Position numbers and translations under genes: made by a program. From Escherichia phage vB_EcoS_W011D: DNA of 49,847 nucleotides. Position 1 is the stretch's first letter. Every line of letters begins with the position of its first letter. This document shows positions 9,384-38,229 of this stretch, piece after piece. The stretch is from the sequence record NC_054893.1; one strand, written 5' to 3'. A model generated the notes under the pieces. The model did not search any database and had not been told where the DNA came from. It saw nothing but the letters and a program-made list of their open reading frames with translations.

Positions 9384-9572
9384 TTTAAAGCCCTCTTGAG
9401 ATCCAAAGCTGATACATTTCAAAGTAGTGCAATGCTGTGTCTGTGTCGCCGCGCTCTAGCGCTTCCTCTTGCTTCTGTGCGCACCACTGCGACGGTTTTA
9501 TGTAGTTAGGCATACAATCACCTTTCCAAAATTAGCGCCTCTTAGAATGCGATTTAGGCGATTTTAGGGCTA

Positions 9573-9887
9573 TCAAATTTCGTTTAAATATTCGCGGAAT
9601 TTATTCAACGTCGCAACCTTTGCGCAATCCCATTCTGTGGAACCTGGTTCCTCCCACGGCGAACCAGGGCCGTGATTTGTCATGTCGTCAATCAAGCATG
9701 AAATTTCATCAACAATCAGATCTTTCGTGTGCTCATTAACTGCAATGTTTTCTACTGATTCAAACGCCTGAATCACTCCACCCAAAACGCGCTGCTGCGC
9801 TAATGCTTCATCTAACGTGTCGCAAATTGCTCTGCGCTCAATCTTGTTGTCGTTGGTTCCGATCTTGTATGTGTGAACGTAAATCAT
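9573..9887 (-). CDS. Hypothetical acidic protein
   Basis: 104-aa track ORF with GAGGAGG RBS; 4-nt overlap with the upstream gene. Confidence 0.45.
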   Translation of the reverse strand: MIYVHTYKIGTNDNKIERRAICDTLDEALAQQRVLGGVIQAFESVENIAVNEHTKDLIVDEISCLIDDMTNHGPGSPWEEPGSTEWDCAKVATLNKFREYLNEI

Positions 9888-10120
9888 AAACCCGCCTCCT
9901 CTGCTGTTTCGTTTTTACGCTTCCACTCCTCAATGGCTCTTTCATTCAATCCGCTTTCGTGCATCCATACTGCCAACCCTGCCGCATCAGTGCTGCGCGG
10001 GTAAATCTGATTTTCAATCTGATTTGAGATTTCTGCGATAACCCCGTTTATTGGGGTAAAGTCTCCAACTGTATTCATGAAAACTTTCGCTTGCTCAACT
10101 GAAAGGTTAATCGTGATCAT
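9884..10120 (-). CDS. Hypothetical protein
   Basis: 78-aa track ORF with GGAGAA RBS; ATGA overlap with the neighbouring gene. Confidence 0.45.
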   Translation of the reverse strand: MITINLSVEQAKVFMNTVGDFTPINGVIAEISNQIENQIYPRSTDAAGLAVWMHESGLNERAIEEWKRKNETAEEAGL

Positions 10121-10338
10121 TCTTCGTTCTCCACTTTATCAAATTTCACTTTCGGATTGTCACGCAGAAAAACAACGTCGTTATCGTATGCGTCAACTCG
10201 AATTTCGAAAACATCACCAGTTTCGCTATCAATCAGATAATCAGAATCCTCGGCAAGTATTAGCTCGTAGTGATTACCCTCAACAACAGCGCCGTAATCC
10301 TTGCGAGCCTCAAACATAGTTCCGGTATAAACTGCCAT
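10117..10338 (-). CDS. Small strongly acidic protein (DNA-mimic / anti-restriction candidate)
   Basis: Track ORF trimmed to ATG with GAGGAGA RBS; about a quarter of residues are Asp/Glu with a C-terminal ENEE tail. Confidence 0.4.
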   Translation of the reverse strand: MAVYTGTMFEARKDYGAVVEGNHYELILAEDSDYLIDSETGDVFEIRVDAYDNDVVFLRDNPKVKFDKVENEE

Positions 10339-10395
10339 TTTCAAATCTCCTCGTTTCGCTTCAATGAGGACACTTTAACAAATGTCCTCGCGGAA

Positions 10396-10415
10396 GTTTT
10401 AGCAATTCGTGCTAT
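10396..10415 (-). promoter_or_regulatory. Conserved 20-bp box copy (ATAGCACGAATTGCTAAAAC)
   Basis: Overlaps the TAG stop of the upstream gene; followed by hairpin GAGGACA/TGTCCTC with TAAAGT in the loop region and the conserved leader GCGAAACGAGGAG. Confidence 0.6.
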
Positions 10416-11149
10416 TTGACTTTTTGCAGTTCAAGAAACGCATCAGAGAAGATTTTCGCACTCTTGACGGCTGCAATTAGTTGCTCTGCATTTCGCACCT
10501 GCGGGAACATGTCATAAAGCTGATCAATTACTGCCTCCGCCTTGATGCAATCAGCCTTGTGTTGTTCCGCTTCCTTTTCCAGTTTTGCGATCTGGCTTTC
10601 GGTGTACTGCTTACCATTCAGCGCAACGGTTAGCTCACTCGGTTTAAAGTTGCCGCTGGTGATTTGCATACCTGCATTGTGAACTCGCCAACCCTCACCT
10701 TTTACCGCCGTAGCATCAACGTTGCCGATTGTTACAACAAGCTCGCCATCTTTCCACTGCTCCAACTGGCCTTTGCTGTTGAGGAAATAACCGTTTTTCG
10801 GGTATGCAAATTGAGCCACCAGCTTTGCCGCGTTATCAGCGATTTGGCGAGCCGCCTTTAAGTGATCGCTTTCCCTTGCCGCGTTATAGATGGTTCCGCC
10901 AGGCTTGCACTCAGTTCTCAACACTGACGCCGTTACGTGCTTAACTGCTTCCTCAATGGTCGGGAATTCAACCAGGTTGAACTTTCCGCCGCGCAACCGC
11001 AACGAGCCTTTATCACCGATGTTAACGATCTGCTTTTTGCCTTTGTCGTTGCGCACTTCAACTTGATTTTCACCATAAGAGAAAAGCACTTCGTAAAGTT
11101 TGCCAGCCGTGAAGTTTTCGCCGTTAGTGGTAGGTTTTACATATTTCAT
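10412..11149 (-). CDS. Hypothetical protein (245 aa)
   Basis: Track ORF trimmed to MKYVKP start with GGGAGA RBS. Confidence 0.45.
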   Translation of the reverse strand: MKYVKPTTNGENFTAGKLYEVLFSYGENQVEVRNDKGKKQIVNIGDKGSLRLRGGKFNLVEFPTIEEAVKHVTASVLRTECKPGGTIYNAARESDHLKAARQIADNAAKLVAQFAYPKNGYFLNSKGQLEQWKDGELVVTIGNVDATAVKGEGWRVHNAGMQITSGNFKPSELTVALNGKQYTESQIAKLEKEAEQHKADCIKAEAVIDQLYDMFPQVRNAEQLIAAVKSAKIFSDAFLELQKVK

Positions 11150-11696: not shown

Positions 11697-11716
11697 GTTT
11701 TAGCAATTCGTGCTAT
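11697..11716 (-). promoter_or_regulatory. Conserved 20-bp box copy (ATAGCACGAATTGCTAAAAC)
   Basis: Followed by hairpin AGGAGCA/TGCTCCT with TATAGT 18 nt after the box. Confidence 0.6.
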
Positions 11717-12698: not shown

Positions 12699-12718
12699 CT
12701 TTTAACATTTCGTGCTAT
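12699..12718 (-). promoter_or_regulatory. Conserved 20-bp box copy (ATAGCACGAAATGTTAAAAG)
   Basis: Overlaps the TAG stop of the kinase gene. Confidence 0.55.
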
Positions 12719-13293
12719 TTCGCCAGGTGATCGCGTATAATTTCCTCAACCGTTACCATTGGGTTTTTATCCATTAGGTAATAGTCATATTCGCAATATC
12801 CGCTTACGTTGTCGCGCGCGCTACTGATTCGGATGTAGTCGCGGCTATCGCCCTGGAAAGTGAACCCCTCGCGATGGAGGCGGCAAACTTTTACCTCGTG
12901 ACCTCCTCTGATTAGTTCGATCACTTCATCGGGAAAACCGCCATCAGTGCAAATAACCGGAATGTCGCTGCGCTCCGCTTCCTCTGCAAACCGCTTGCCG
13001 AAATACCCATTGCCGAAACGCGGCTTGATTACTTCCTCGCTAATCCAGATCATGAACTGGCGGCAACTCATACCATTCAGGAAGTCATGCGGCTTTTCTT
13101 TCTGTTCGCGGTCATTATACGCCGCCAAGAATTCGCGGTACTTACCAGGTCCAAGCATGGCAAGTGCGATCTCAAACATCGGTTGTTTGAAGCTCAACAG
13201 TCGCAACGGTACTGGTGATTCATCCTTAACCAGCGATCCGATTGTGTCTTTTCCAGCGCCTGGCGGTGCATTCAGAATGATGATTTTAGCCAT
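12715..13293 (-). CDS. P-loop kinase (polynucleotide 5'-kinase-like)
   Basis: N-terminal Walker A LNAPPGAGKDT right after the start, as in the kinase domain of T4 Pnk; GGGGAGAA RBS. Confidence 0.55.
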   Translation of the reverse strand: MAKIIILNAPPGAGKDTIGSLVKDESPVPLRLLSFKQPMFEIALAMLGPGKYREFLAAYNDREQKEKPHDFLNGMSCRQFMIWISEEVIKPRFGNGYFGKRFAEEAERSDIPVICTDGGFPDEVIELIRGGHEVKVCRLHREGFTFQGDSRDYIRISSARDNVSGYCEYDYYLMDKNPMVTVEEIIRDHLAK

Positions 13294-13820
13294 TAGTGTT
13301 TCTCCCCAACTTTGATTGTGCTGATCTGGTGTTCGTATTTTTCAATTTTATACGCCGTCGCATCATAAACGGTTTGCTTTGAAATCTGCAAATTGTCAAC
13401 GCAAACAACACCCTTCTCAATGTCATCAGCCAGATTGCGAAGTATTTCGGCGTACTTTGCGCGAACTTCATCAACACTGCTTGGTTCAATAAATCTCATC
13501 TCATTTCTCCTTTGTTGATTGCTTTCAATAAGGCCGCTCGCAAACGGCCTTGCGAAAAGTCTTATGGGCAACTGCCAAACACATTCTTTCCAGTTTTCTG
13601 GATCGTCAAGTTTGCCGCAATAAATCACTGCGCGATTTTCCTCACCATCGCCGGATTGCCATTCTGGAAAATGCGCCATGTGCTCAGGCTCGCCCTTGTA
13701 TCCGAACACGGAACCATCTTCATCTTGCGCAAGGTGCGTTGCGCCGCTAATAAGGATCTTGTTTTTGGTGGTCACGCCGTACTTTTCAATTTCGGTGAAA
13801 ATCTGCTCTAAAGTTTTCAT
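13293..13820 (-). CDS. Hypothetical protein (175 aa) between kinase and phosphatase
   Basis: Track ORF trimmed to MKTLEQIF start with CGAGGAA RBS. Confidence 0.4.
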   Translation of the reverse strand: MKTLEQIFTEIEKYGVTTKNKILISGATHLAQDEDGSVFGYKGEPEHMAHFPEWQSGDGEENRAVIYCGKLDDPENWKECVWQLPIRLFARPFASGLIESNQQRRNEMRFIEPSSVDEVRAKYAEILRNLADDIEKGVVCVDNLQISKQTVYDATAYKIEKYEHQISTIKVGEKH

Positions 13821-13874
13821 GCTTAGTTCCTCGTTGTTTGGTGTGGGGCTACTATACCGCAACCCCAATTTCGT

Positions 13875-13894
13875 GTTTTAGCAATTCGTGCTAT
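13875..13894 (-). promoter_or_regulatory. Conserved 20-bp box copy (ATAGCACGAATTGCTAAAAC)
   Basis: Box follows the TAA-TAG end of a 27-aa micro-ORF. Confidence 0.55.
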
Positions 13895-13977
13895 TACGCG
13901 CCGCTTACAATGATAGCAATGACAATGCTATTAATGATCATGATTGCGGCAAAAACCATCATTTGATATGTGTTCAT
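13894..13977 (-). CDS. Micro-ORF, 27-aa hydrophobic peptide (MNTYQMMVFAAIMIINSIVIAIIVSGA)
   Basis: ATG overlaps the phosphatase TAA stop (TAATG); AGGAG RBS inside the 3' end of the phosphatase gene; manual translation. Confidence 0.4.
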   Translation of the reverse strand: MNTYQMMVFAAIMIINSIVIAIIVSGA

Positions 13978-14513
13978 TATTTCAACTCCTCCACGCCGTG
14001 AGATTTCAGGTGATTGTGTATATTCTCGCCGTAGTCAGTGACCGCGTAAGTTGTGATCCCCAGGCTGCGCATATGCTTAATAACCGTTGGCGAATCGTCA
14101 AAGGCGCACACAATGTTATCCAGGCCGATAGCGCGCAAAACCTCCTCTTTGATGATCGTGTCTTTGCGGTTGTCAAAACTCCGGCGCATGATGATGTGAT
14201 CGTAATGCACGCCGTTATCAGTGAGCCAATCGACTGATTCTTTCATTACCTCGTCGCTGCGCCCTGTTAGGATGATAACCGCAAAGCCTGACACCCAAAG
14301 GCCGTTGATAATGGCGATTGTGCTTCTGATTGGTAAATCATTAACGGCTGCGCGGTTAAATTCGCTCCATGATTCAGTTAGGTGCAAATCCTTTGTCGGT
14401 AGCAGGTGCAAGCGGTGTTTCCCGTCGCTCAACGTGCCATCGTAATCAACAATCACGATCCCTTTGTGGCGTGATGGCATAATGTAGGTTTGATCCCAAA
14501 TCTCAAATTGCAT
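13977..14513 (-). CDS. HAD-family phosphatase (polynucleotide 3'-phosphatase-like)
   Basis: HAD motif I DYDGTL near the N-terminus (T4 Pnk phosphatase domain has DVDGTL); AGGAG RBS. Confidence 0.6.
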   Translation of the reverse strand: MQFEIWDQTYIMPSRHKGIVIVDYDGTLSDGKHRLHLLPTKDLHLTESWSEFNRAAVNDLPIRSTIAIINGLWVSGFAVIILTGRSDEVMKESVDWLTDNGVHYDHIIMRRSFDNRKDTIIKEEVLRAIGLDNIVCAFDDSPTVIKHMRSLGITTYAVTDYGENIHNHLKSHGVEELK

Positions 14514-14778
14514 TGTGCAAAGCTCCTGATTTTAGTTTATTCCAGAATGCGAACGGGTTTTCATTGATAACCTCGATTTCATCATAAGTAAAGAAAAGCG
14601 TTGGCTGCGACTCTATAGGCCATGCCGCCTCGTCACGGTATAATTTATCTGGATCGTATTTCACAGATTCGCCAACCGGAATCATCCAGCCGCTATAGCC
14701 TTTCTCAGCCATCACTATTTTACCAACGGCGTGATTGAATGAAGAATAATCCGAATGTAAGATCCTAACCTTTTGCAT
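14503..14778 (-). CDS. Hypothetical protein
   Basis: 91-aa track ORF with AGAGGAAAGG RBS. Confidence 0.45.
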   Translation of the reverse strand: MQKVRILHSDYSSFNHAVGKIVMAEKGYSGWMIPVGESVKYDPDKLYRDEAAWPIESQPTLFFTYDEIEVINENPFAFWNKLKSGALHNAI

Positions 14779-14833
14779 TGCCTTTCCTCTCGTTGGTTGA
14801 TGCGGTCATGATACCAATCAGCACACATGACCG

Positions 14834-14851
14834 CTTAACATTTCGTGCTAT
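14834..14851 (-). promoter_or_regulatory. Conserved box copy, slightly truncated (ATAGCACGAAATGTTAAG)
   Basis: Immediately downstream of the 55-aa membrane ORF stop. Confidence 0.45.
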
Positions 14852-15073: not shown

Positions 15074-15093
15074 GTTTTAACAAAAAGTGCTAT
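15074..15093 (-). promoter_or_regulatory. Conserved 20-bp box copy (ATAGCACTTTTTGTTAAAAC)
   Basis: Box contains the TAG stop of the 28-aa micro-ORF. Confidence 0.55.
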
Positions 15094-15176
15094 TTATTCA
15101 TAGCCCATATAAACCATGCTATATGCGCCACATACACAACGCCAATTGATATGGCAAACACTGCATCAATGTTCAT
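15090..15176 (-). CDS. Micro-ORF, 28-aa hydrophobic peptide (MNIDAVFAISIGVVYVAHIAWFIWAMNK)
   Basis: ATGA overlap with the upstream 49-aa ORF; stop is the TAG of the box; manual translation. Confidence 0.35.
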   Translation of the reverse strand: MNIDAVFAISIGVVYVAHIAWFIWAMNK

Positions 15177-15322
15177 TTTAGTAAGCAAAACGCCCTTGCA
15201 TTGTATGCGTGTTTCATTACCACCTCGCGAGCCTCCAGGCAACGCGCTTTGCTGTGGAATTCCTGCGTTGTAACCGCCTCGCCTTGCATGGTGGAAATAA
15301 CCAGGATTAGAACGTGAATCAT
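15173..15322 (-). CDS. Small ORF, about 49 aa
   Basis: ATGA overlap with the stop of gene 15319-15606; GGAGA RBS; manual translation. Confidence 0.35.
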   Translation of the reverse strand: MIHVLILVISTMQGEAVTTQEFHSKARCLEAREVVMKHAYNARAFCLLK

Positions 15323-15606
15323 CCGAAAGTCTCCATTATGCCAAAAAGTGAAATCAGCGATTTATTGCGCTTCCTGCGATATTTGCGCATAACCATGCTA
15401 ACATCGCCTATCTGATGGCCTAACGTAATCGGCATTTCCGATCCGTCGCCATAGTCGTTTTCGCCTTTCTTGGGCTTGTTCTGCCAGGCCTGGATAAATC
15501 CGAACTTGTCGCGTGTAACATAGCGGTATATGTTCGGGAGGTGAATCTTGATGCCCTCAAAATCAACCTCCGCGCTATAGCTCCTGAAATTAAGCGTGGA
15601 ATTCAT
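15319..15606 (-). CDS. Hypothetical protein (start uncertain: 15606 or 15627)
   Basis: Track ORF 15319-15630 whose listed first codon is not ATG; internal ATG starts are possible. Confidence 0.35.
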   Translation of the reverse strand: MNSTLNFRSYSAEVDFEGIKIHLPNIYRYVTRDKFGFIQAWQNKPKKGENDYGDGSEMPITLGHQIGDVSMVMRKYRRKRNKSLISLFGIMETFG

Positions 15607-15803: not shown

Positions 15804-15823
15804 GTTTTAACAAAAAGTGCTAT
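15804..15823 (-). promoter_or_regulatory. Conserved 20-bp box copy (ATAGCACTTTTTGTTAAAAC)
   Basis: Followed by hairpin GGGGTT/AACCCC with TATAGT between the arms, then leader CATCGAAACGAAACGAGGA. Confidence 0.6.
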
Positions 15824-16474: not shown

Positions 16475-16933
16475 TTATTCTCCTTTGATCATATTTTCAA
16501 TAATTGCCTGGTAACGCTGCGCCATAATAAGCGCGCCCTCTGCTTTCTCGCCGCTCAAATCTGCAATGTTCGGCATGGTATGCAGCAAACCGCGCATCGC
16601 TTTTGCCACTGCCTTTTGTTCGATTGCGCTCACATCTTCGCTGGTCAGCACCTTACGCTTTGCATCGCGATTCAGGCGGAACACGTAAAACCGCTCGTCG
16701 TCCGTTTCCTCAACCTTAATGCTGATTGTGCCAGCCGCTTTCACTTCCGGCACGCGGTTGATAATTGTCCTGGAATACGAAACGCTTTTCGTGATCTTGT
16801 AGTAATCATCGCCGTTGTGGTTGCTGGCGAGAATATCAAGCGATAGGCGATACTCCTCAACCTCACCGTCTGCCAGCCGCTTTCCCAGCGCTCGCAACCA
16901 ATTGCAATAATCTTTCGTGGTTTTTTCTTCCAT
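16475..16933 (-). CDS. Hypothetical protein, first gene of the leftward early operon
   Basis: Track ORF trimmed to MEEKTTKD start with GAGGAGGAA RBS, just downstream of a consensus promoter. Confidence 0.45.
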   Translation of the reverse strand: MEEKTTKDYCNWLRALGKRLADGEVEEYRLSLDILASNHNGDDYYKITKSVSYSRTIINRVPEVKAAGTISIKVEETDDERFYVFRLNRDAKRKVLTSEDVSAIEQKAVAKAMRGLLHTMPNIADLSGEKAEGALIMAQRYQAIIENMIKGE

Positions 16934-16964
16934 CGTGATTCCTCCTCTGATTGGTTCGGGAGCC

Positions 16965-16992
16965 ATTATAATCAGGCCGCGCGACGTGTCAA
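16965..16992 (-). promoter_or_regulatory. Consensus sigma70-type early leftward promoter (TTGACA - 16 nt - TATAAT)
   Basis: On the minus strand: TTGACA at about 16987-16992 and TATAAT at about 16965-16970 with a 16-nt spacer; A-rich upstream tract. Confidence 0.6.
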
Positions 16993-17029
16993 TGTTTATT
17001 TTGTTTAACAGACGACTACAACCGCACAA

Positions 17030-17650
17030 AAAGACAAAACAGCGCCTAAGTCATTGAAAACAGGCTGTCTTTTTTTCTGTTAACGCTGTTAACGAGTTGC
17101 GGAGGATTAAATATATATAGATGCGCACACGCCACCCCACCCAGGCGAGCGCATACCCATATATCACTATACATCAATCCAGACACTACCCCATATCCAC
17201 CATAAACAGTGTGAACAATAAAAACAACAAATAGATATATATAAATAAATATACTTTAATTTCAATGTATTATAGAGGATTTATAGTGTTTATTTTGTTT
17301 ACTCAACACCGAAAAACGGCGCGGAAACAATGCGGAGAAATCTGTGAACACCCATGAACAAGAGGAGACAAAGCGCCATGGCGAGAGCGAAAACTTGACA
17401 CTTGCGAACCAGGTTTCACCATTCCCCACACAATCAGTAAAAATTCACACTAATTATTGTCTAAACTGCAACAATCACTATCTTGCATGATGTGCAACGA
17501 TATGCGGCTATCATTTCAGATTTTGCAATGGTGCTGCAAAGCGGTTGTTTTATACACAATCCATCAATAGCACTTTTTGTTAAAAGCGATCGGATCTGAT
17601 TTGCTATAGTTACTTCATCGAAACGGGATACCCAATCAGGAGCAAGCAAG
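17030..17650. other. 620-bp AT-rich non-coding region between the divergent early operons, carrying a ~150-bp element homologous to one in 36530-36990
   Basis: No ORF of 60 aa or more with an RBS; contains ACAAATAGATATATATAAATAAATA and GTGAACAC boxes shared with the second region. Confidence 0.6.
17567..17586 (+). promoter_or_regulatory. Conserved 20-bp box copy (ATAGCACTTTTTGTTAAAAG), first of the rightward early block
   Basis: Followed 18 nt later by TATAGT and the CATCGAAACGGGA leader before the 17652 start. Confidence 0.6.
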
Positions 17651-17927: not shown

Positions 17928-17946
17928 TAGCACTTTTTGTTAAAAC
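17927..17946 (+). promoter_or_regulatory. Conserved 20-bp box copy (ATAGCACTTTTTGTTAAAAC)
   Basis: Starts at the stop of the upstream gene; followed by hairpin GGGGTT/..CCCC with TGGCATAAT. Confidence 0.6.
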
Positions 17947-19048: not shown

Positions 19049-19068
19049 ATAGCACTTTTTGTTAAAAC
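19049..19068 (+). promoter_or_regulatory. Conserved 20-bp box copy (ATAGCACTTTTTGTTAAAAC)
   Basis: Followed by hairpin GCGCCC/GGGCGC with TGGTATAAT between the arms. Confidence 0.6.
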
Positions 19069-19644: not shown

Positions 19645-20340
19645 ATGGTTATTTGGTCACTGTTTGACGGCTCCGGCATTATGGGCCTGGATTGGGCGAA
19701 AGCTGGTCACACTGTTTTCTGTTTCAATGCTGATACAGCGGATCACGGCGAATACGAAATCAAGATGCAGCATGAAAACCTGCATTATGTGAATGCCTGG
19801 ATTGATGAAACGTTTGATCCGGCTGGCTCGGTGGCTTACCTATCAGGGAACCAGCAAAAGGTAATCAGCAAGCCTGACATTATTTTTGCTTTCCCGTCAT
19901 GCACTGAGTTAGCGCATAGTGGGCGCAAGCATGAGCGCAACGAGGACGCTGTTGATCTGGCTGTCAGTAATGCAAAACTGGTTGAGGCGTTAGGCAATCG
20001 CTATGGTTGCCCCTGGATGGTGGAAAATCCCGTGGGGCTTCTGTCAACTAAATGGCGCAAACCAAACCATTACTTTCACCCGTTCGAATACGGCGGATAC
20101 ATGCGAGAGGATGAAAAGCCTTATCATCCAAAAATGCCAGCTTTCGACGGGTACACAAAGAAAACTTGCATTTGGTGCGGTAACGGTTTTGTTATGCCTG
20201 ATAAAGTACCAGGCCCGATCAATATAGGTTTCTTTTGGGCGTGGAAGTATTTAGGCGGAAAGTCTGCCAGGACAAAGCAATTGCGCTCACTCACCCCTCG
20301 CGGCTTTTCGCGTGCCGTCATGATCTTTAATTCAAAATAG
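19645..20340 (+). CDS. Short SAM-dependent methyltransferase-like protein, possibly cytosine-C5 type (atypical motifs)
   Basis: 231 aa; LFDGSGIMG resembles MTase motif I, FPSCTE resembles a catalytic Cys motif (not canonical PCQ), ENPVG resembles the ENV motif; too short for a classical target-recognition domain. Confidence 0.4.
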   Translation: MVIWSLFDGSGIMGLDWAKAGHTVFCFNADTADHGEYEIKMQHENLHYVNAWIDETFDPAGSVAYLSGNQQKVISKPDIIFAFPSCTELAHSGRKHERNEDAVDLAVSNAKLVEALGNRYGCPWMVENPVGLLSTKWRKPNHYFHPFEYGGYMREDEKPYHPKMPAFDGYTKKTCIWCGNGFVMPDKVPGPINIGFFWAWKYLGGKSARTKQLRSLTPRGFSRAVMIFNSK

Positions 20341-20356
20341 CACTTTTTGTTAAAAG
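20337..20356 (+). promoter_or_regulatory. Conserved 20-bp box copy (ATAGCACTTTTTGTTAAAAG)
   Basis: Box contains the TAG stop of the upstream gene; followed by hairpin GCCAGG/CCTGGC then CATAAT. Confidence 0.6.
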
Positions 20357-20832: not shown

Positions 20833-21077
20833 GTGAAAAGCGTTATTTAGGCGTTGGCGACGTGCAAAAGGAATGGCGCTATAAAGTCATAGATGGCGAA
20901 ACTTCCTGCATGAAAGTTGGCGATATTATCAAGCCAATTAAGGTTGTTGGCGGCAAATGGCAGATCGGACACAATTACCGCCAATCGTTACCTTTTGAGC
21001 GAATAGATAGCGTTACGGCTGAATGCGTTAGCTCACTGACCGGAAAACTAATGGCTCGCATAGAGCGGATCAAATAG
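20829..21077 (+). CDS. Hypothetical protein
   Basis: 82-aa track ORF; ATGA overlap with the upstream gene. Confidence 0.45.
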   Translation: MSEKRYLGVGDVQKEWRYKVIDGETSCMKVGDIIKPIKVVGGKWQIGHNYRQSLPFERIDSVTAECVSSLTGKLMARIERIK

Positions 21078-21093
21078 CACTTTTTGTTAAAAC
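21074..21093 (+). promoter_or_regulatory. Conserved 20-bp box copy (ATAGCACTTTTTGTTAAAAC)
   Basis: Contains the TAG stop of the upstream gene; followed by hairpin GTTGCCG/CGGCAAC with TATAAT in the loop. Confidence 0.6.
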
Positions 21094-23124: not shown

Positions 23125-23245
23125 TGATCTGATTTATGCGCTGTTAACCATAATGCGAGCCGACATGAAAGCGTTTGGCGACAAGGAGCATAATTTATGT
23201 GATGGTGATGGCGTGATATTGGTTAACGTCAGATTGCTTGAATAG
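23051..23245 (+). CDS. Possible overlapping small ORF (64 aa); may be spurious or a frameshift partner
   Basis: Overlaps 22732-23124 by 74 nt in another frame; weak RBS; its stop lies in the next box copy. Confidence 0.2.
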   Translation: MKNYSAQKLIDEILKHCAVNSISHDDLIYALLTIMRADMKAFGDKEHNLCDGDGVILVNVRLLE

Positions 23246-23261
23246 CACTTTTTGTTAAAAA
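23242..23261 (+). promoter_or_regulatory. Conserved 20-bp box copy (ATAGCACTTTTTGTTAAAAA)
   Basis: Followed by hairpin ACCCGAT/ATCGGGT then TATATT and the CATCGAAACGAAAC leader. Confidence 0.6.
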
Positions 23262-31865: not shown

Positions 31866-33941
31866 ATGGCTATTTATCGCACTGGACAAGCGTCTATGGA
31901 CGCTCAAGGATACATCACCGGATATGATACAAAATGGCGTGAGCAACTTTCATTAATCCGCCCTGGTGCAACAATCTTTTTTATTGATGCTCCTTTTCAA
32001 GCGGCTGTGATTAGTGAGGTTATCAGCGATACACAAATCCGCGCCATCACAACTGGCGGCGCTGAAATTGGGCGAAGCAATTACATCATTTTGCTGCATG
32101 ACTCAATCACGGTTGACGGCCTGGCGCAAGATGTTGCGGAAACTCTGCGCTACTATCAAAGCAAAGAAACTCAGATCGAGGAAGCTATTGAATTTTTCAA
32201 AAACCTTGACCTGAAAACTTTGCAGGATTTGGTTAATCAGATTAAAGGTGATGCAGAAAAAACAGCCGCTGATCGCGCTGCAACTGAACAACTGAAAAAC
32301 GACACTCAACAGATAAAGGATTCTGCTGTCGCTGAAACAAACCAGATCAAGTCCGACACTGACGCAATCAAAAGCCAAACTCAACAGATCAAGGATTCCG
32401 CTGTAAATGAAACGGAAGCCATTAAGCAAGGGGCTTTTGGCGCTCGCGATCAGGCTGAATTGGCGCGTGATGCGGCTGGAAATCATGCCGTTGATGCTAA
32501 TAATGCAAAGGCTGGCGCTGAGACTGCGCGTGATGAAGCGCGTCAATGGGCGCAACAGGTACAGCCTGAAAATCTGTTACATAAAGATCAGAACCTTAAT
32601 GATCTTGCAAACAAAGACCTTGCAAGGGAGGCGTTGAAAGTTGAGGCGGTTAATTCTGTAAAAGGTCAGGCTGCTGGAGATTATAACTCTTTCCGCAACC
32701 CTGCATGGACTTATGAATTGCGGATCGCTAACAATGGCGAATGGCGCGTTGCAAGAAATAGCGATGGATCAACGTCTGCTCTTTCTGTTGGCGCTGGCGG
32801 TACTGGTGCGGAAAACGTAGAAGGCGCAAGGATAAACTTTAGGCTTCAAGGATTTGACACATTGTCAAGTGAGTCAAGGGTATTAAATCCTCAAAATGTA
32901 AGCCAATACATATTTATGAATTCGATTGGTGGTTGGGGTGCTTACGACTCTGAAAATGTAAGAGCAATTCCGCTATCGCTTGGCAATGGTGGAACTGGAG
33001 GTACAGATCAGAATAGCGCTCGCCATAACTTAGGATTATCCATTAATCACTCCCCTGTTTTTGCTGGTATTGATTTGCAAGGTCTTAACGGCACAACGTC
33101 AGGGATCATGGTTTTAAGAAATAGAGATGCTGGAGGCGCTCAAGTTTCATACTCAAGAATTTACCATGAAATTCAGGCTGGAGTTGCCAGAACAACAATA
33201 CAAACAACAAGAGAGGGTGGTGGTACTAACTATTTTCAGATTGATGAAACTGGACTTGTTAATAATGTTAGGGCGATAAGATGTTCTCCGTCAAATGTTG
33301 GTGGCGAGGGATTTACCGTTGGCGTTGTTCCTGGTGGAGGATTTGCAGCCTGGAGAGATCGACCTGCTGGAATGATTGTTGAGCACCCAAGCGATGATGT
33401 TGCGGTTAACGTATTGAAATCTGTCCGTTGGGGCGGAGATTGGGTTATGGGGATTGACGCTGCAAGGTATGGCGCTGGAGGTTGCGAGGTTCATCTAAAT
33501 GTAAGAGGTACTACATATACATTTAATGATGCTGGTTATGCGTCTGCTGTTCAGTGGGTTAACACATCCGATATTCGCCTGAAAGCAAATCTAAAAGAGA
33601 TTGAAAGCGCTAAAGAAAAAGTGAAATCAATAAAAGGTTACACTTATTTCAAGAGGAATAATCTTGATGAAGATGAGCACTCTTTCTACTCTGAGGAAGC
33701 TGGTGTAATAGCTCAAGACGTGCAAAGTGTTTTGCCGGAAGCGGTTTACAAGATTTCAGATTCTGAATATTTAGGTGTTAGCTATGGCGGGGTTACTGCT
33801 CTTTTAGTTAACGCATTCAACGAAATGAGCGATCAGATTGACAAGCAACAAGAGGAGATCGAAACACTGAAATCTGAAATTGCAGATCTTAAAGCGGCGT
33901 TTGAGGCGTTACTCAACAAGCCAACAACGCTGGAAAGTTAA
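31866..33941 (+). CDS. Side tail fibre / receptor-binding protein with C-terminal intramolecular chaperone (peptidase S74-type) domain
   Basis: 691 aa; repeat-rich coiled-coil shaft; C-terminal SDIRLKANLKEI (Ser-Lys dyad motif) followed by a heptad-like coiled coil; AT-rich distal half with AGA/AGG codons. Confidence 0.75.
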   Translation: MAIYRTGQASMDAQGYITGYDTKWREQLSLIRPGATIFFIDAPFQAAVISEVISDTQIRAITTGGAEIGRSNYIILLHDSITVDGLAQDVAETLRYYQSKETQIEEAIEFFKNLDLKTLQDLVNQIKGDAEKTAADRAATEQLKNDTQQIKDSAVAETNQIKSDTDAIKSQTQQIKDSAVNETEAIKQGAFGARDQAELARDAAGNHAVDANNAKAGAETARDEARQWAQQVQPENLLHKDQNLNDLANKDLAREALKVEAVNSVKGQAAGDYNSFRNPAWTYELRIANNGEWRVARNSDGSTSALSVGAGGTGAENVEGARINFRLQGFDTLSSESRVLNPQNVSQYIFMNSIGGWGAYDSENVRAIPLSLGNGGTGGTDQNSARHNLGLSINHSPVFAGIDLQGLNGTTSGIMVLRNRDAGGAQVSYSRIYHEIQAGVARTTIQTTREGGGTNYFQIDETGLVNNVRAIRCSPSNVGGEGFTVGVVPGGGFAAWRDRPAGMIVEHPSDDVAVNVLKSVRWGGDWVMGIDAARYGAGGCEVHLNVRGTTYTFNDAGYASAVQWVNTSDIRLKANLKEIESAKEKVKSIKGYTYFKRNNLDEDEHSFYSEEAGVIAQDVQSVLPEAVYKISDSEYLGVSYGGVTALLVNAFNEMSDQIDKQQEEIETLKSEIADLKAAFEALLNKPTTLES

Positions 33942-37250: not shown

Positions 37251-37920
37251 AGTCGTATGCCGCCGTGTTAATTGCTGTAACCGCAACGCCTGTATTTAAA
37301 TAACCCGCTGGCGATCCTCCTGCGGATTGGTTTGAAGCCGCATGAATCCTTGTTGTCGAGCCATTAAAATTTGCTGCCGTATATGCCGAAACGTTAACTA
37401 TTACTGGCTGCTGACCAGGAATGTAAACCTGCACTAAAGTTGCCCCCATTAATCTAGGCATTACAGCGTAAGATCCTGATAATGTTTGATCTATGTAAAT
37501 CCCTCCTCCGCTTCCTGGTGTTCCTATAGTAACGAGATCCGATAATGGCTTGCTCTCATTTGTTAATATACATGTCCCGCTTGCGTCCCATATAGCCATA
37601 CCCCATTTTGGGATTGGTTGAGGAAATCTTGCAAATAAATAACAAGTTATGGTGAATAGCGGAACGTTCCTACCCTGCGCGGAGCCGCTAAAAACAATAT
37701 AATCACCCTGCCTACTACACCCTAAAGCAGCGCCCCAACTACATTTTATAAATCCTATTGCTGAATAGGATGCAGGACAATAAACCCTTGATACAGCACT
37801 AACATATTGAGCCGAATCTCTTGTTGCTACCGCCTCAGTTCTTGAATATAAAACAAAAGGCGTTGATTCAGGAGTAACAAAAGTTTGCCCGTTATAATCT
37901 ATCATTGCACCGTAGGCCAT
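37249..37920 (-). CDS. Hypothetical tail-associated protein (223 aa, AT-rich gene, N-terminus MAYG)
   Basis: Track ORF; last gene after J; AT-rich codon usage unlike the rest of the tail module. Confidence 0.45.
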   Translation of the reverse strand: MAYGAMIDYNGQTFVTPESTPFVLYSRTEAVATRDSAQYVSAVSRVYCPASYSAIGFIKCSWGAALGCSRQGDYIVFSGSAQGRNVPLFTITCYLFARFPQPIPKWGMAIWDASGTCILTNESKPLSDLVTIGTPGSGGGIYIDQTLSGSYAVMPRLMGATLVQVYIPGQQPVIVNVSAYTAANFNGSTTRIHAASNQSAGGSPAGYLNTGVAVTAINTAAYD

Positions 37921-38229
37921 TTAAGCATTCTCCAGATAAACAATTAATTCGCATTGTGACGCTGGGTAATAATTATATCCAAGCTCGGATGTAGTAGCCG
38001 GATGAATAATTATAGAATTGCCTGAAATTTCTATTCTTCTCCCTACTTGCTGGCCTCCAGCGTCAAGACCTACAACATATCCAAGTTTTTTACCTGCCGG
38101 AACATTAAAAGACCATTGACCAGAAGTCTGACCAGATGCAAGAGGGATATTTGATATAACCGAAACAGGCTTGATCCCGTAGTTGTTATAAACCCCGTTT
38201 GCATCCCATGTTGATATACCATAAGCCAT
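37921..38229 (-). CDS. Hypothetical tail-associated protein (102 aa, N-terminus MAYG)
   Basis: Track ORF 37921-38268 trimmed to MAYGISTW start with CAGGAGA RBS; shares the MAYG N-terminus with the next gene. Confidence 0.45.
   Translation of the reverse strand: MAYGISTWDANGVYNNYGIKPVSVISNIPLASGQTSGQWSFNVPAGKKLGYVVGLDAGGQQVGRRIEISGNSIIIHPATTSELGYNYYPASQCELIVYLENA

What the first reader, a model, noticed from the sequence alone, without database searches (positions are those of the whole stretch)
12715..14513. End-healing enzyme pair encoded as separate genes: P-loop kinase and HAD phosphatase split by an unknown gene
12715-13293 starts with a Walker A motif (LNAPPGAGKDT) as in the kinase domain of T4 polynucleotide kinase; 13977-14513 starts with the HAD motif DYDGTL as in the T4 Pnk phosphatase domain. 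In T4 these are one polypeptide used with RNA ligase to repair tRNAs cut by host anticodon nucleases. Here the two activities are separate genes with a 175-aa unknown protein (13293-13820) and a micro-ORF between them, and no recognisable ligase nearby. This may be a split end-healing counter-defence module whose partner is one of the adjacent unknown genes.
Basis: partly seen in the sequence, partly recalled or inferred. Interest (0 to 1): 0.55.

Follow-up and report, generated by a model that had tools for sequence, protein, structure and literature searches.

The report
Phage nucleotide kinase plus phosphatase pair
Two early genes of a T1-like coliphage encode a deoxynucleotide-kinase-type enzyme and a T4-Pnk-type phosphatase; the two genes travel together in many phages, and they most likely process deoxynucleotides salvaged from host DNA rather than repair cut tRNAs, so the locus is ordinary and already annotated.

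Summary
Both genes are real. They lie on the minus strand in the order HAD phosphatase (13977-14513), a 27-aa micro-ORF, a 175-aa gene (13293-13820), then the kinase (12715-13293). The window is a Drexlerviridae phage about 97% identical to Escherichia phage PaulSarasin (Bas09), where the two genes are already annotated.

The HAD protein is a true T4-Pnk-type phosphatase. It passes Pfam HAD_PNKP, keeps all T4 catalytic residues, and its best fold matches include T4 Pnkp and Pnkp1.

The pair is linked. The HAD gene lies upstream on the same strand in 74 of 81 related loci, often overlapping the kinase start, and rare fused proteins exist. The middle gene is variable cargo and nearly an ORFan, not a partner.

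In other phages the same kinase sits beside NT5C-type or YfbR-type 5'-deoxynucleotidases, RNR, dUTPase or ThyA genes. T5 Dmp, known as a 5'-dNMPase, shares the HAD's PHROG. No ligase was found.

The best reading is a deoxynucleotide salvage and pool-balancing module. DNA end-healing remains a minority possibility, and tRNA repair is unlikely. Novelty and interest are low.

The parts
13977..14513 (-). Stand-alone HAD phosphatase of the T4 Pnk / Pnkp1 phosphatase type, 178 aa. Motif I is D23-x-D25-G-T; other key residues are R34, T83-G-R85, R110, D118, K122, D139-D140.
13894..13977 (-). 27-aa hydrophobic micro-ORF (MNTYQMMVFAAIMIINSIVIAIIVSGA). Its ATG overlaps the HAD stop codon. Possibly a small membrane peptide; coding status unproven.
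   Evidence: The region is 82% identical in phage PHB17 (L002).
13876..13893 (-). Copy of the Drexlerviridae 21-nt co-oriented intergenic repeat (ATAGCACnnnTTGnTAAAA). It separates the HAD unit from the unit holding the middle gene and the kinase.
   Evidence: 21 copies in the window against 0.27 expected. The same element is described in TLS, function unknown (PMC11447400).
13293..13820 (-). 175-aa acidic protein of unknown function. It is variable cargo inserted between the HAD and kinase genes, and it is translationally coupled to the kinase (TAATG).
   Evidence: Only 1 homologue (103 aa, 49% coverage) in 5.8 billion proteins. PaulSarasin has two other small genes here. Only weak matches to PHROGs of unknown function. 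No PDB match. The HAD-kinase gap ranges from -6 to 2162 nt in relatives.
12715..13293 (-). P-loop kinase of the T4 gp1 / T5 Dnk deoxynucleoside monophosphate kinase family, 192 aa. It is a minimal version that lacks a 50-60 aa helical insertion.
12700..12717 (-). Another copy of the 21-nt intergenic repeat. It overlaps the kinase stop codon and is followed by a GC hairpin.
16965..16992 (-). Perfect sigma-70 consensus (TTGACA-16-TATAAT) upstream of the leftward early gene block that contains the module. It is a candidate promoter, inferred only.
   Evidence: 12 of 12 matches. The region as a whole has no more promoter-like sites than shuffled sequence.

Best explanation
The locus is a deoxynucleotide-processing module of a T1-like phage, not an RNA end-healing system.

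The 192-aa protein is a compact member of the T4 gp1 / T5 Dnk family. It most likely transfers the gamma-phosphate of ATP to deoxynucleoside 5'-monophosphates, making dNDPs that host Ndk converts to dNTPs. The 178-aa protein is a Mg-dependent aspartyl-phosphatase with the T4 Pnk phosphatase fold. It most likely removes a monoester phosphate from deoxynucleotides or from short DNA breakdown products. Candidate substrates are 3'-phosphates, as for T4 Pnk on 3'-dNMPs and 3'-P DNA ends, or 5'-phosphates, as for its distant relative T5 Dmp.

Both are expressed early from the leftward operon. Together they would channel and balance the dNMP pool released when the phage degrades the host chromosome, which T1 and TLS are known to reuse.

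Shown: family and fold assignments, conservation of catalytic residues, linkage of the two genes, and variability of the middle gene. Inferred: the substrates and the physiological role.
For: Kinase:
- It is in phrog_139 with T5 Dnk and T4 gp1.
- It shares the GKDT plus SFxxPxxExA motifs with T5 Dnk.
- The gp1 dNMP ligands R68, R132, D175 and E181 correspond to R62, R78, D117 and E123, all conserved (ligand list from PMC10653934).
- A prophage member of the gp1-like family supplies essential dTMP kinase activity in P. putida (PMC10653934).

Context of the kinase family in other phages:
- It overlaps an NT5C-type HAD 5'-deoxynucleotidase beside ThyA and RNR in Vequintavirus.
- It is preceded by YfbR-like HD 5'-deoxynucleotidases.
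- It is preceded by a nucleoside 2-deoxyribosyltransferase-like gene in an RNR cluster.
- It lies near dUTPase and RNR genes.
- So different dNMP-acting enzymes fill the slot that the HAD fills here.

HAD:
- T5 Dmp, annotated in the T5 record as deoxynucleoside-5'-monophosphatase, matches the same phrog_415 at 3.6e-57. It carries the same DxDGT..HR, T-x-R, KDxxxK and DD motifs.
- A 41%-identical stand-alone HAD overlaps the nrdB stop codon in the nrdAB operon of Krischvirus GEC-3S.

Phage biology and literature:
- T1 and TLS degrade host DNA and reuse the nucleotides (PMC11447400).
- A 2026 Drexlerviridae paper reads the two genes as extending the replication module to enhance nucleotide supply (PMC13164509).
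- No ligase was found in the genome.
Against: - By sequence and fold the HAD is clearly nearer to polynucleotide kinase-phosphatases than to any mononucleotidase. Direct similarity to T5 Dmp is weak (BLASTP E 0.054; hhalign 23%), and Dmp is not identifiable among the top 50 BFVD matches, several of which are unnamed.
- The kinase fails Pfam DNMK, which T5 Dnk passes.
- The kinase replaces gp1 Arg177, a dNMP phosphate and base ligand, with an invariant Gly.
- A nucleotidase co-expressed with a dNMP kinase looks futile unless their specificities differ.
- In T7-like phages the pair sits directly before a DNA ligase, and HAD_PNKP-kinase fusions exist. Both facts fit an end-healing enzyme equally well.
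- In 80 environmental loci, neighbours of the kinase family are heterogeneous.
- No biochemistry exists for either protein.
Confidence: 0.6

Rival explanations
1. DNA end-healing by a two-gene, non-orthologous Pnkp. The HAD removes 3'-phosphates from DNA nicks or breaks. The gp1-like kinase has been recruited to phosphorylate 5'-OH DNA ends. Sealing is done by host LigA, or by the phage DNA ligase in T7-like phages.
For: - The HAD is a bona fide Pnk-type 3'-phosphatase with all T4 essential residues.
- Linkage is tight and the genes are often translationally coupled.
- Rare fusions occur in the order phosphatase then kinase (P0260, P0266).
- The contiguous arrangement exonuclease, endonuclease VII, x, HAD, kinase, DNA ligase occurs in Autographiviridae.
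- An SbcD-like nuclease gene sits directly upstream in Kagunavirus.
- gp1 Arg177 is lost, which could open the acceptor site.
Against: - The base-contacting D175 and E181 equivalents and the phosphate-binding Arg residues are conserved.
- No Asp general base sits at the position after strand 2, where hydroxyl-phosphorylating P-loop kinases such as T4 Pnk have one. The sequence there is S34-F35-K36 (the comparison rests on my own knowledge of T4 Pnk D35).
- The same kinase family pairs with true 5'-deoxynucleotidases and RNR clusters without any HAD_PNKP gene.
- DNA ligase also lies near the kinase where no HAD is present.
Confidence: 0.2
2. One reading: a split T4-Pnk-like RNA end-healing pair that, with an unidentified partner, repairs tRNAs cut by PrrC- or RloC-type anticodon nucleases.
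For: The HAD belongs to the same family as the phosphatase domains of T4 Pnk and of Pnkp1 from the Pnkp1-Rnl-Hen1 RNA repair complex. The two genes are linked.
Against: - No RNA or DNA ligase was found in this genome or its close relatives. From my own knowledge, E. coli has no 3'-OH/5'-P RNA ligase, and healing the ends would remove the substrate of RtcB.
- The kinase is not Pnk-like.
- The proposed partner gene is variable cargo.
- The window has no tRNA genes and no Rfam hits.
- Contexts elsewhere are deoxynucleotide or DNA metabolism, not RNA repair.
Confidence: 0.04
3. The two enzymes have unrelated roles, and their proximity reflects only inherited gene order within Drexlerviridae.
For: Most of the 81 loci in the synteny count are from one family. 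Up to 2.2 kb of unrelated genes can separate the two. In this window a 21-nt repeat places them in different inter-repeat units.
Against: The same order, with 4-nt overlaps, recurs in Autographiviridae, Guernseyvirinae and Webervirus-like phages. Fused proteins exist on independent contigs.
Confidence: 0.1

Closest known systems
Phage T4 gp1 and phage T5 Dnk deoxynucleoside monophosphate kinases (PDB 1DEK; phrog_139; Pfam DNMK PF21448)
   Same: - Same PHROG.
- Best structural match.
- Shared GKDT P-loop and the following SFxxPxxExA helix.
- gp1 R68, R132, D175 and E181 equivalents are conserved.
- Early expression in a lytic phage that remodels nucleotide supply.
   Different: - 192 aa against 241-250 aa, lacking a 50-60 aa insertion in the helical lobe.
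- No Pfam DNMK hit.
- gp1 R177 is replaced by an invariant Gly in the DGGF motif.
- HMMER profile searches against PDB sequences do not find 1DEK, and hhalign aligns only the P-loop region of gp1.
- Usually coupled to a HAD gene.
Phosphatase domain of T4 polynucleotide kinase-phosphatase (PseT; 1LTQ, 5UJ0) and of Capnocytophaga Pnkp1 (4XRP); Pfam HAD_PNKP PF25109
   Same: - Pfam score above the gathering cutoff.
- D165, D167, R176, S211, R213, R246, D254, K258, D277 and D278 equivalents are all present.
   Different: - A stand-alone 178-aa protein with no Pnk-type kinase domain in cis or nearby.
- Its constant neighbour is a dNMP-kinase-type protein placed downstream, the opposite order to T4 Pnk.
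- A conserved but low-confidence 20-residue loop (33-53) replaces the T4 cap region.
Phage T5 Dmp, deoxynucleoside-5'-monophosphatase
   Same: Both match phrog_415 over nearly its full length (1e-62 and 3.6e-57). Both carry the same four HAD motifs, including the KDxxxK signature. T5 also encodes the kinase counterpart, Dnk.
   Different: Pairwise similarity is marginal. Dmp has no Pfam hit. In T5 the two genes are 21 kb apart and Dmp is pre-early. T5 discards host nucleotides whereas T1 reuses them (the T5 part is my own knowledge; the T1 part is).
Annotated 'polynucleotide kinase' plus 'dNMP kinase' genes of Drexlerviridae (TLS gp09 and gp14; PaulSarasin bas09_0073 and bas09_0076; T1)
   Same: These are orthologues: 97.8% and 99% identity to PaulSarasin. 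They are discussed as nucleotide-metabolism genes in PMC11447400 and PMC13164509.
   Different: This phage carries a different insert (the 175-aa gene and the micro-ORF) between the two genes.

Membership tests
T4 Pnk-type 5'-polynucleotide kinase (kinase domain) | Walker A P-loop GxxxxGK[ST] | tested here: met
   GAGKDT at residues 12-17. The motif is generic to all P-loop NTPases, so it does not discriminate.
T4 Pnk-type 5'-polynucleotide kinase (kinase domain) | Profile similarity to Pnk / AAA_33-type kinase families beyond the P-loop | tested here: not met
   No Pfam family at E<=1. No Pnk chain in PDB sequence or profile searches.
T4 Pnk-type 5'-polynucleotide kinase (kinase domain) | Fold closest to polynucleotide kinases (T4 Pnk, mammalian PNKP, Pnkp1, Clp1) | tested here: not met
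T4 Pnk-type 5'-polynucleotide kinase (kinase domain) | Asp general base after strand 2 (T4 D35), with R38 and R126 | tested here: inconclusive
   The residues after strand 2 are S34-F35-K36-x-P38, with no conserved Asp. No reliable alignment to T4 Pnk exists, so the equivalence is inferred.
T4 Pnk-type 5'-polynucleotide kinase (kinase domain) | Phosphorylates 5'-OH ends of DNA or RNA | not testable with these tools
   Needs an enzyme assay.
gp1 / Dnk-type deoxynucleoside monophosphate kinase | Membership of the profile family that contains the characterised enzymes | tested here: met
   phrog_139: window 6.7e-42, T5 Dnk 1.4e-51, T4 gp1 1.8e-65.
gp1 / Dnk-type deoxynucleoside monophosphate kinase | Pfam DNMK (PF21448) above the gathering score | tested here: not met
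   No hit for the window protein. T5 Dnk scores 43.4 bits against a cutoff of 27.1. The model matches the C-terminal half, which is divergent here.
gp1 / Dnk-type deoxynucleoside monophosphate kinase | Fold of T4 gp1 (P-loop core plus helical lobe) | tested here: met
gp1 / Dnk-type deoxynucleoside monophosphate kinase | dNMP-binding residues of gp1 (K37, R68, R132, R177, D175, E181) | tested here: inconclusive
   In the MAFFT alignment, R68 maps to R62, R132 to R78, D175 to D117 and E181 to E123, all conserved. R177 maps to G119, and the K37 position is shifted (K36) (residue list).
gp1 / Dnk-type deoxynucleoside monophosphate kinase | dNMP to dNDP activity | not testable with these tools
   Needs an enzyme assay or complementation of tmk, gmk or cmk mutants.
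PNKP-type HAD 3'-phosphatase (PF25109) | Pfam HAD_PNKP above the gathering score | tested here: met
   63.9 bits against 27.6. All listed homologues carry PF25109.
PNKP-type HAD 3'-phosphatase (PF25109) | Catalytic and essential residues of the T4 phosphatase (D165, D167, R176, S211, R213, R246, D254, K258, D277, D278) | tested here: met
   D23, D25, R34, T83, R85, R110, D118, K122, D139 and D140 are invariant in 21 homologues. The list of essential T4 residues is from my own knowledge of Shuman-laboratory mutagenesis.
PNKP-type HAD 3'-phosphatase (PF25109) | Fold closest to solved Pnk phosphatase domains | tested here: met
PNKP-type HAD 3'-phosphatase (PF25109) | Acts on 3'-phosphate (or 2',3'-cyclic phosphate) ends of polynucleotides | not testable with these tools
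   Needs an assay. Note that T5 Dmp, a 5'-dNMPase, shares the PHROG and the motifs.
Pnk + RNA ligase tRNA-repair counter-defence (T4 PseT/Rnl1 type) | An RNA ligase (Rnl1 or Rnl2 type) encoded by the same genome | tested here: not met
   No ligase is annotated in the 97%-identical PaulSarasin genome. No KxDGxR nucleotidyltransferase motif occurs in any window ORF of 60 aa or more. The check was by motif and annotation, not by an HMM scan of every ORF.
Pnk + RNA ligase tRNA-repair counter-defence (T4 PseT/Rnl1 type) | Bifunctional or paired Pnk-type kinase together with the phosphatase | tested here: not met
   The paired kinase is of the gp1/Dnk type.
T5 Dmp-type deoxynucleoside 5'-monophosphatase | Detectable homology to T5 Dmp | tested here: inconclusive
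   Both match phrog_415 strongly and share all HAD motifs. Direct BLASTP gives E 0.054 and hhalign 23% probability. Dmp is not identifiable among the top 50 BFVD matches, several of which carry no name.

The most novel reading that the evidence does not exclude
The gp1-like kinase and the Pnk-type HAD together form a previously unrecognised, non-orthologous polynucleotide kinase-phosphatase. It would be two genes in most phages and fused in a few, in phosphatase-then-kinase order. It would heal 3'-P/5'-OH DNA breaks for sealing by host LigA or, in T7-like phages, by the adjacent phage DNA ligase. Such breaks could be self-inflicted during host DNA breakdown or made by a defence nuclease. That would make a dNMP-kinase fold a new lineage of 5'-polynucleotide kinase.
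Probability: 0.15. Interest if true: 0.6.

Novelty: new member of a known kind. Interest (0 to 1): 0.25.

Why it matters
For this window the result is corrective. The gene that databases label 'polynucleotide kinase' is only a phosphatase, and the neighbouring kinase belongs to the dNMP-kinase family. A T4-style tRNA-repair counter-defence should therefore not be inferred for T1-like phages.

More generally, the analysis shows a recurrent coupling, sometimes a fusion, between a gp1-like kinase and a phosphatase. The phosphatase slot can be filled by HAD_PNKP, NT5C or YfbR-type enzymes. This pattern suggests that phages routinely pair a dNMP kinase with a nucleotidase to shape the pool of salvaged deoxynucleotides.

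How T1-like phages recycle host DNA is still listed as an open question in the TLS paper, and these two genes are obvious candidates for genetic testing in the BASEL phage Bas09. No enzyme of either Drexlerviridae family has been assayed in the literature I searched, so substrate specificity is unknown.

Tried and rejected
- Single-sequence and profile HMM searches of the kinase against PDB sequences returned only P-loop-level matches: guanylate and adenylate kinases, AAA ATPases, and a spurious TALE-repeat hit. They could not decide between gp1 and Pnk; the fold comparison was needed.
- hhalign of the kinase alignment against T4 gp1 and T4 Pnk aligned only the P-loop.
- I tested whether T5 Dmp is a close relative of the HAD. 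It is only a distant one, so I use it to show that this HAD clade includes a mononucleotidase, not to assign a substrate.
- A census of immediate neighbours of the kinase in 80 diverse environmental viral loci gave heterogeneous partners: WYL_2, SAM synthetase, glycosyltransferases, Fe-S proteins and one YfbR-like protein. The nucleotidase coupling is therefore recurrent, not universal.
- The middle gene as a conserved third component was rejected.
- There are no tRNA genes or Rfam families in the window. The promoter and terminator scan gave no excess over shuffled sequence apart from one perfect consensus site.
Full report
**What the window is.** The 49.8-kb window is essentially a complete genome of a T1-like siphophage (Drexlerviridae, Tempevirinae, Changchunvirus). 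It aligns along almost its whole length, at about 97% identity, with Escherichia phage PaulSarasin (BASEL Bas09, MZ501099), in permuted and reverse orientation. The finding lies in the leftward, minus-strand early gene block. That block consists mostly of small hypothetical genes. A perfect sigma-70 consensus sits upstream at 16992-16965.

**Checking the observation.**
- All the ORFs exist, and all are on the minus strand. Transcription therefore runs HAD (13977-14513, 178 aa), a 27-aa hydrophobic micro-ORF (13894-13977), a 175-aa gene (13293-13820), then the kinase (12715-13293, 192 aa).
- GAGKDT is at residues 12-17 of the kinase and DYDGTL at residues 23-28 of the HAD.
- The micro-ORF start overlaps the HAD stop. 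The stop of the middle gene overlaps the kinase start as TAATG, behind a GGGGAG Shine-Dalgarno sequence.
- These are genuine genes. tblastn finds the kinase in 1448 phage records and the HAD in 2436.

**The HAD protein.**
- It scores 63.9 bits on Pfam HAD_PNKP (PF25109, cutoff 27.6).
- A profile of 21 homologues finds only polynucleotide kinase-phosphatases at the top of the PDB: Pnkp1 at 2.1e-14 and the T4 Pnk phosphatase at 3.6e-8 and 2.1e-7. The next hit is at 0.008.
- From the HMMER alignments, the T4 residues D165, D167, R176, S211, R213, R246, D254, K258, D277 and D278 correspond to D23, D25, R34, T83, R85, R110, D118, K122, D139 and D140. All are invariant among homologues.

**The kinase.**
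- It has no Pfam hit at all, and no AAA_33 hit in particular. Sequence and profile searches of the PDB give only P-loop matches.
- Its PHROG is phrog_139, 'deoxynucleoside monophosphate kinase' (6.7e-42). The biochemically characterised T5 Dnk (1.4e-51) and T4 gp1 (1.8e-65) hit the same PHROG.
- hhalign links the first 50 residues to T5 Dnk at 95% probability, extending beyond the P-loop into the SFxxPxxExA helix.
- A MAFFT alignment of ten family members with T5 Dnk and T4 gp1 leaves G14, K15, R78, D117 and E123 invariant. R78, D117 and E123 are the equivalents of gp1 R132, D175 and E181, and R62 aligns with gp1 R68. These residues are dNMP phosphate and base ligands in 1DEK.
- There are differences from gp1. 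The window family lacks a 50-60 aa insertion in the helical lobe, and it has Gly where gp1 has Arg177.

**Are the two genes a pair?** Yes.
- In 81 IMG/VR and GenBank loci fetched with the kinase, 74 have the HAD upstream on the same strand. The gap ranges from -6 nt (overlapping genes, Webervirus-like phages) through about 110-490 nt (T1 itself is L052) to 2.2 kb.
- The same HAD-then-kinase order, with 4-nt overlaps, recurs outside Drexlerviridae: in Autographiviridae (Aeromonas Ahp1, Erwinia S2, contig L091) and in Kagunavirus.
- Among the 150 best representatives of the 3874-member kinase family, two are fusions with an N-terminal HAD_PNKP domain: P0260 (403 aa, on three contigs including a 60.7-kb phage contig) and P0266 (461 aa, on one contig).

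**The middle gene.**
- PaulSarasin carries two other small genes in its place.
- Only PHB17-like phages share part of it.
- One partial homologue exists among 5.8 billion proteins.
- It has no Pfam, NCBIfam or PDB match.
- The HAD-kinase interval is thus an insertion hot spot, and this gene is cargo, not a conserved partner.
- A copy of the Drexlerviridae 21-nt co-oriented intergenic repeat (ATAGCACnnnTTGnTAAAA) precedes it, and another follows the kinase. The window has 21 copies against 0.27 expected. The element was described in TLS and its function is unknown.

**What the pair probably does.** The kinase family's neighbours in other phage lineages are informative.
- In Vequintavirus pangalan the kinase overlaps a downstream NT5C-type HAD 5'(3')-deoxynucleotidase (27.3 bits against a cutoff of 24.8), next to thymidylate synthase and RNR.
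- In two unrelated contigs it is preceded by a YfbR-like HD-domain 5'-deoxynucleotidase.
- In Aeromonas phage LAh_9 it is preceded by a nucleoside 2-deoxyribosyltransferase-like gene inside an RNR and thioredoxin cluster.
- Elsewhere it lies between RNR genes and a protein with a Nudix-box-like sequence (my reading of the sequence), or near dUTPase.
- Non-homologous enzymes that act on deoxynucleoside monophosphates thus occupy the slot that the Pnk-type HAD occupies here.
- On the HAD side, T5 Dmp matches the same phrog_415 over its full length (3.6e-57). The T5 record annotates Dmp as deoxynucleoside-5'-monophosphatase. It has the same DxDGT..HR, T-x-R, KDxxxK and DD motifs, although direct similarity is marginal.
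- A 41%-identical stand-alone HAD overlaps the nrdB stop codon in the nrdAB operon of the T4-like Krischvirus GEC-3S.
- T1 and TLS degrade the host chromosome and reuse its nucleotides, and the enzymes responsible are unidentified (PMC11447400).
- A 2026 Drexlerviridae study interprets these two genes as extending the replication module to enhance nucleotide supply (PMC13164509).
- A prophage gp1-like kinase supplies the essential dTMP kinase of P. putida KT2440 (PMC10653934).

I therefore favour, at about 0.6, a deoxynucleotide salvage and pool-balancing module. The kinase would convert dNMPs to dNDPs. The HAD would remove a phosphate from deoxynucleotides or small DNA breakdown products. From my own knowledge, the T4 Pnk phosphatase itself hydrolyses 3'-dNMPs. 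The substrates are inferred, not shown.

**Rivals.**
- DNA end-healing by a non-orthologous two-gene Pnkp (about 0.2) stays open. The HAD is nearer to Pnk phosphatases than to any nucleotidase. Fusions exist. In T7-like phages the order is exonuclease, endonuclease VII, x, HAD, kinase, DNA ligase. Against it stand the kinase's dNMP-kinase fold and ligand residues. The same kinase also occurs with true nucleotidases, and it occurs near a ligase in the absence of any HAD.
From my own knowledge, healing RNA ends without a 3'-OH/5'-P RNA ligase would even destroy the substrate of host RtcB.
- Mere inherited gene order (about 0.1) is contradicted by recurrence across phage families and by the fusions.

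**Novelty.** The two genes are 98-99% identical to annotated PaulSarasin genes ('polynucleotide kinase' and 'putative P-loop NTPase protein'). Their orthologues in TLS, T1 and many Klebsiella phages are routinely labelled 'polynucleotide kinase' and 'dNMP kinase'. This is a new member of a known, homology-annotated but biochemically untested pair.

Three points are worth recording:
- The 'polynucleotide kinase' label on the HAD gene is a misnomer, because the protein has no kinase domain.
- The kinase partner is gp1-like, not Pnk-like.
- The kinase-phosphatase coupling, including fusions and replacement of the HAD by other nucleotidase folds, is a recurrent phage theme whose biochemistry is open.

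Interest is low to moderate.

Noticed in passing
window 12700-12717, 13876-13893, 10397-10414, 11698-11715, 14833-14850, 15075-15092, 15805-15822 (minus strand); 17568-17585, 17928-17945, 19050-19067, 20338-20355, 21075-21092, 23243-23260 (plus strand), and others: A co-oriented intergenic repeat, ATAGCAC-nnn-TTG-n-TAAAA, occurs 21 times against 0.27 expected. It is always in the direction of the local genes and usually sits between gene cassettes. It is the 21-nt Drexlerviridae repeat reported for TLS, whose function is listed there as an open question. Here it brackets the cassette that holds the middle gene and the kinase.
   Followed up: partly
window 13294-13976, compared with L001-L081: The interval between the HAD and kinase genes is an insertion hot spot. 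It ranges from a 4-nt gene overlap to 2.2 kb of unrelated small genes in 74 related phages. The 175-aa gene present here is nearly an ORFan (one partial homologue in 5.8 billion proteins) and looks mosaic: the N-terminal and C-terminal parts hit different PHROGs of unknown function.
   Followed up: partly
window 13894-13977, minus strand: A 27-aa strongly hydrophobic micro-ORF whose ATG overlaps the HAD stop codon. It is conserved at 82% nucleotide identity in phage PHB17 and may encode a small membrane peptide.
   Followed up: no
window 16965-16992, minus strand: A perfect TTGACA-16-TATAAT sigma-70 consensus lies inside the 5' part of the longest reading of ORF 16475-17029. It probably marks the real early leftward promoter, which would imply a shorter gene start.
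   Followed up: no
window 32820-33407, 37279-38151, 14560-14773, 15096-15599, 9398-11093: These segments have no match, or only a weak one, to the otherwise 97%-identical PaulSarasin genome. They are likely swapped accessory or host-range cassettes. The first two map to the stretch of the PaulSarasin genome that holds the lateral tail fibre and tail-tip genes.
   Followed up: no
L087 6001-7212 (P0260) and L088 498-1883 (P0266): Natural fusions of an N-terminal HAD_PNKP domain to a C-terminal gp1-like kinase. The order is phosphatase then kinase, the reverse of T4 Pnk. One is on a 60.7-kb phage contig next to PAPS-reductase-like and Dam-like genes.
   Followed up: partly
L175 3498-3974 (Krischvirus GEC-3S); L086 4612-5205 (Vequintavirus pangalan); L094 2445-3014; L130 2344-2973: Phosphatases of three different folds or families are translationally coupled to nrdB or to the gp1-like kinase in different phage lineages: a Pnk-type HAD, an NT5C-type HAD and a YfbR-like HD protein. 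This looks like non-orthologous displacement at one functional slot.
   Followed up: partly
L090 124-858 (T5 dmp): T5 Dmp, the classical 5'-deoxyribonucleotidase, carries all the signature motifs of the T4 Pnk phosphatase clade. It falls in the PHROG labelled 'polynucleotide kinase' yet has no Pfam hit. The PHROG label is therefore misleading for many phage annotations.
   Followed up: partly
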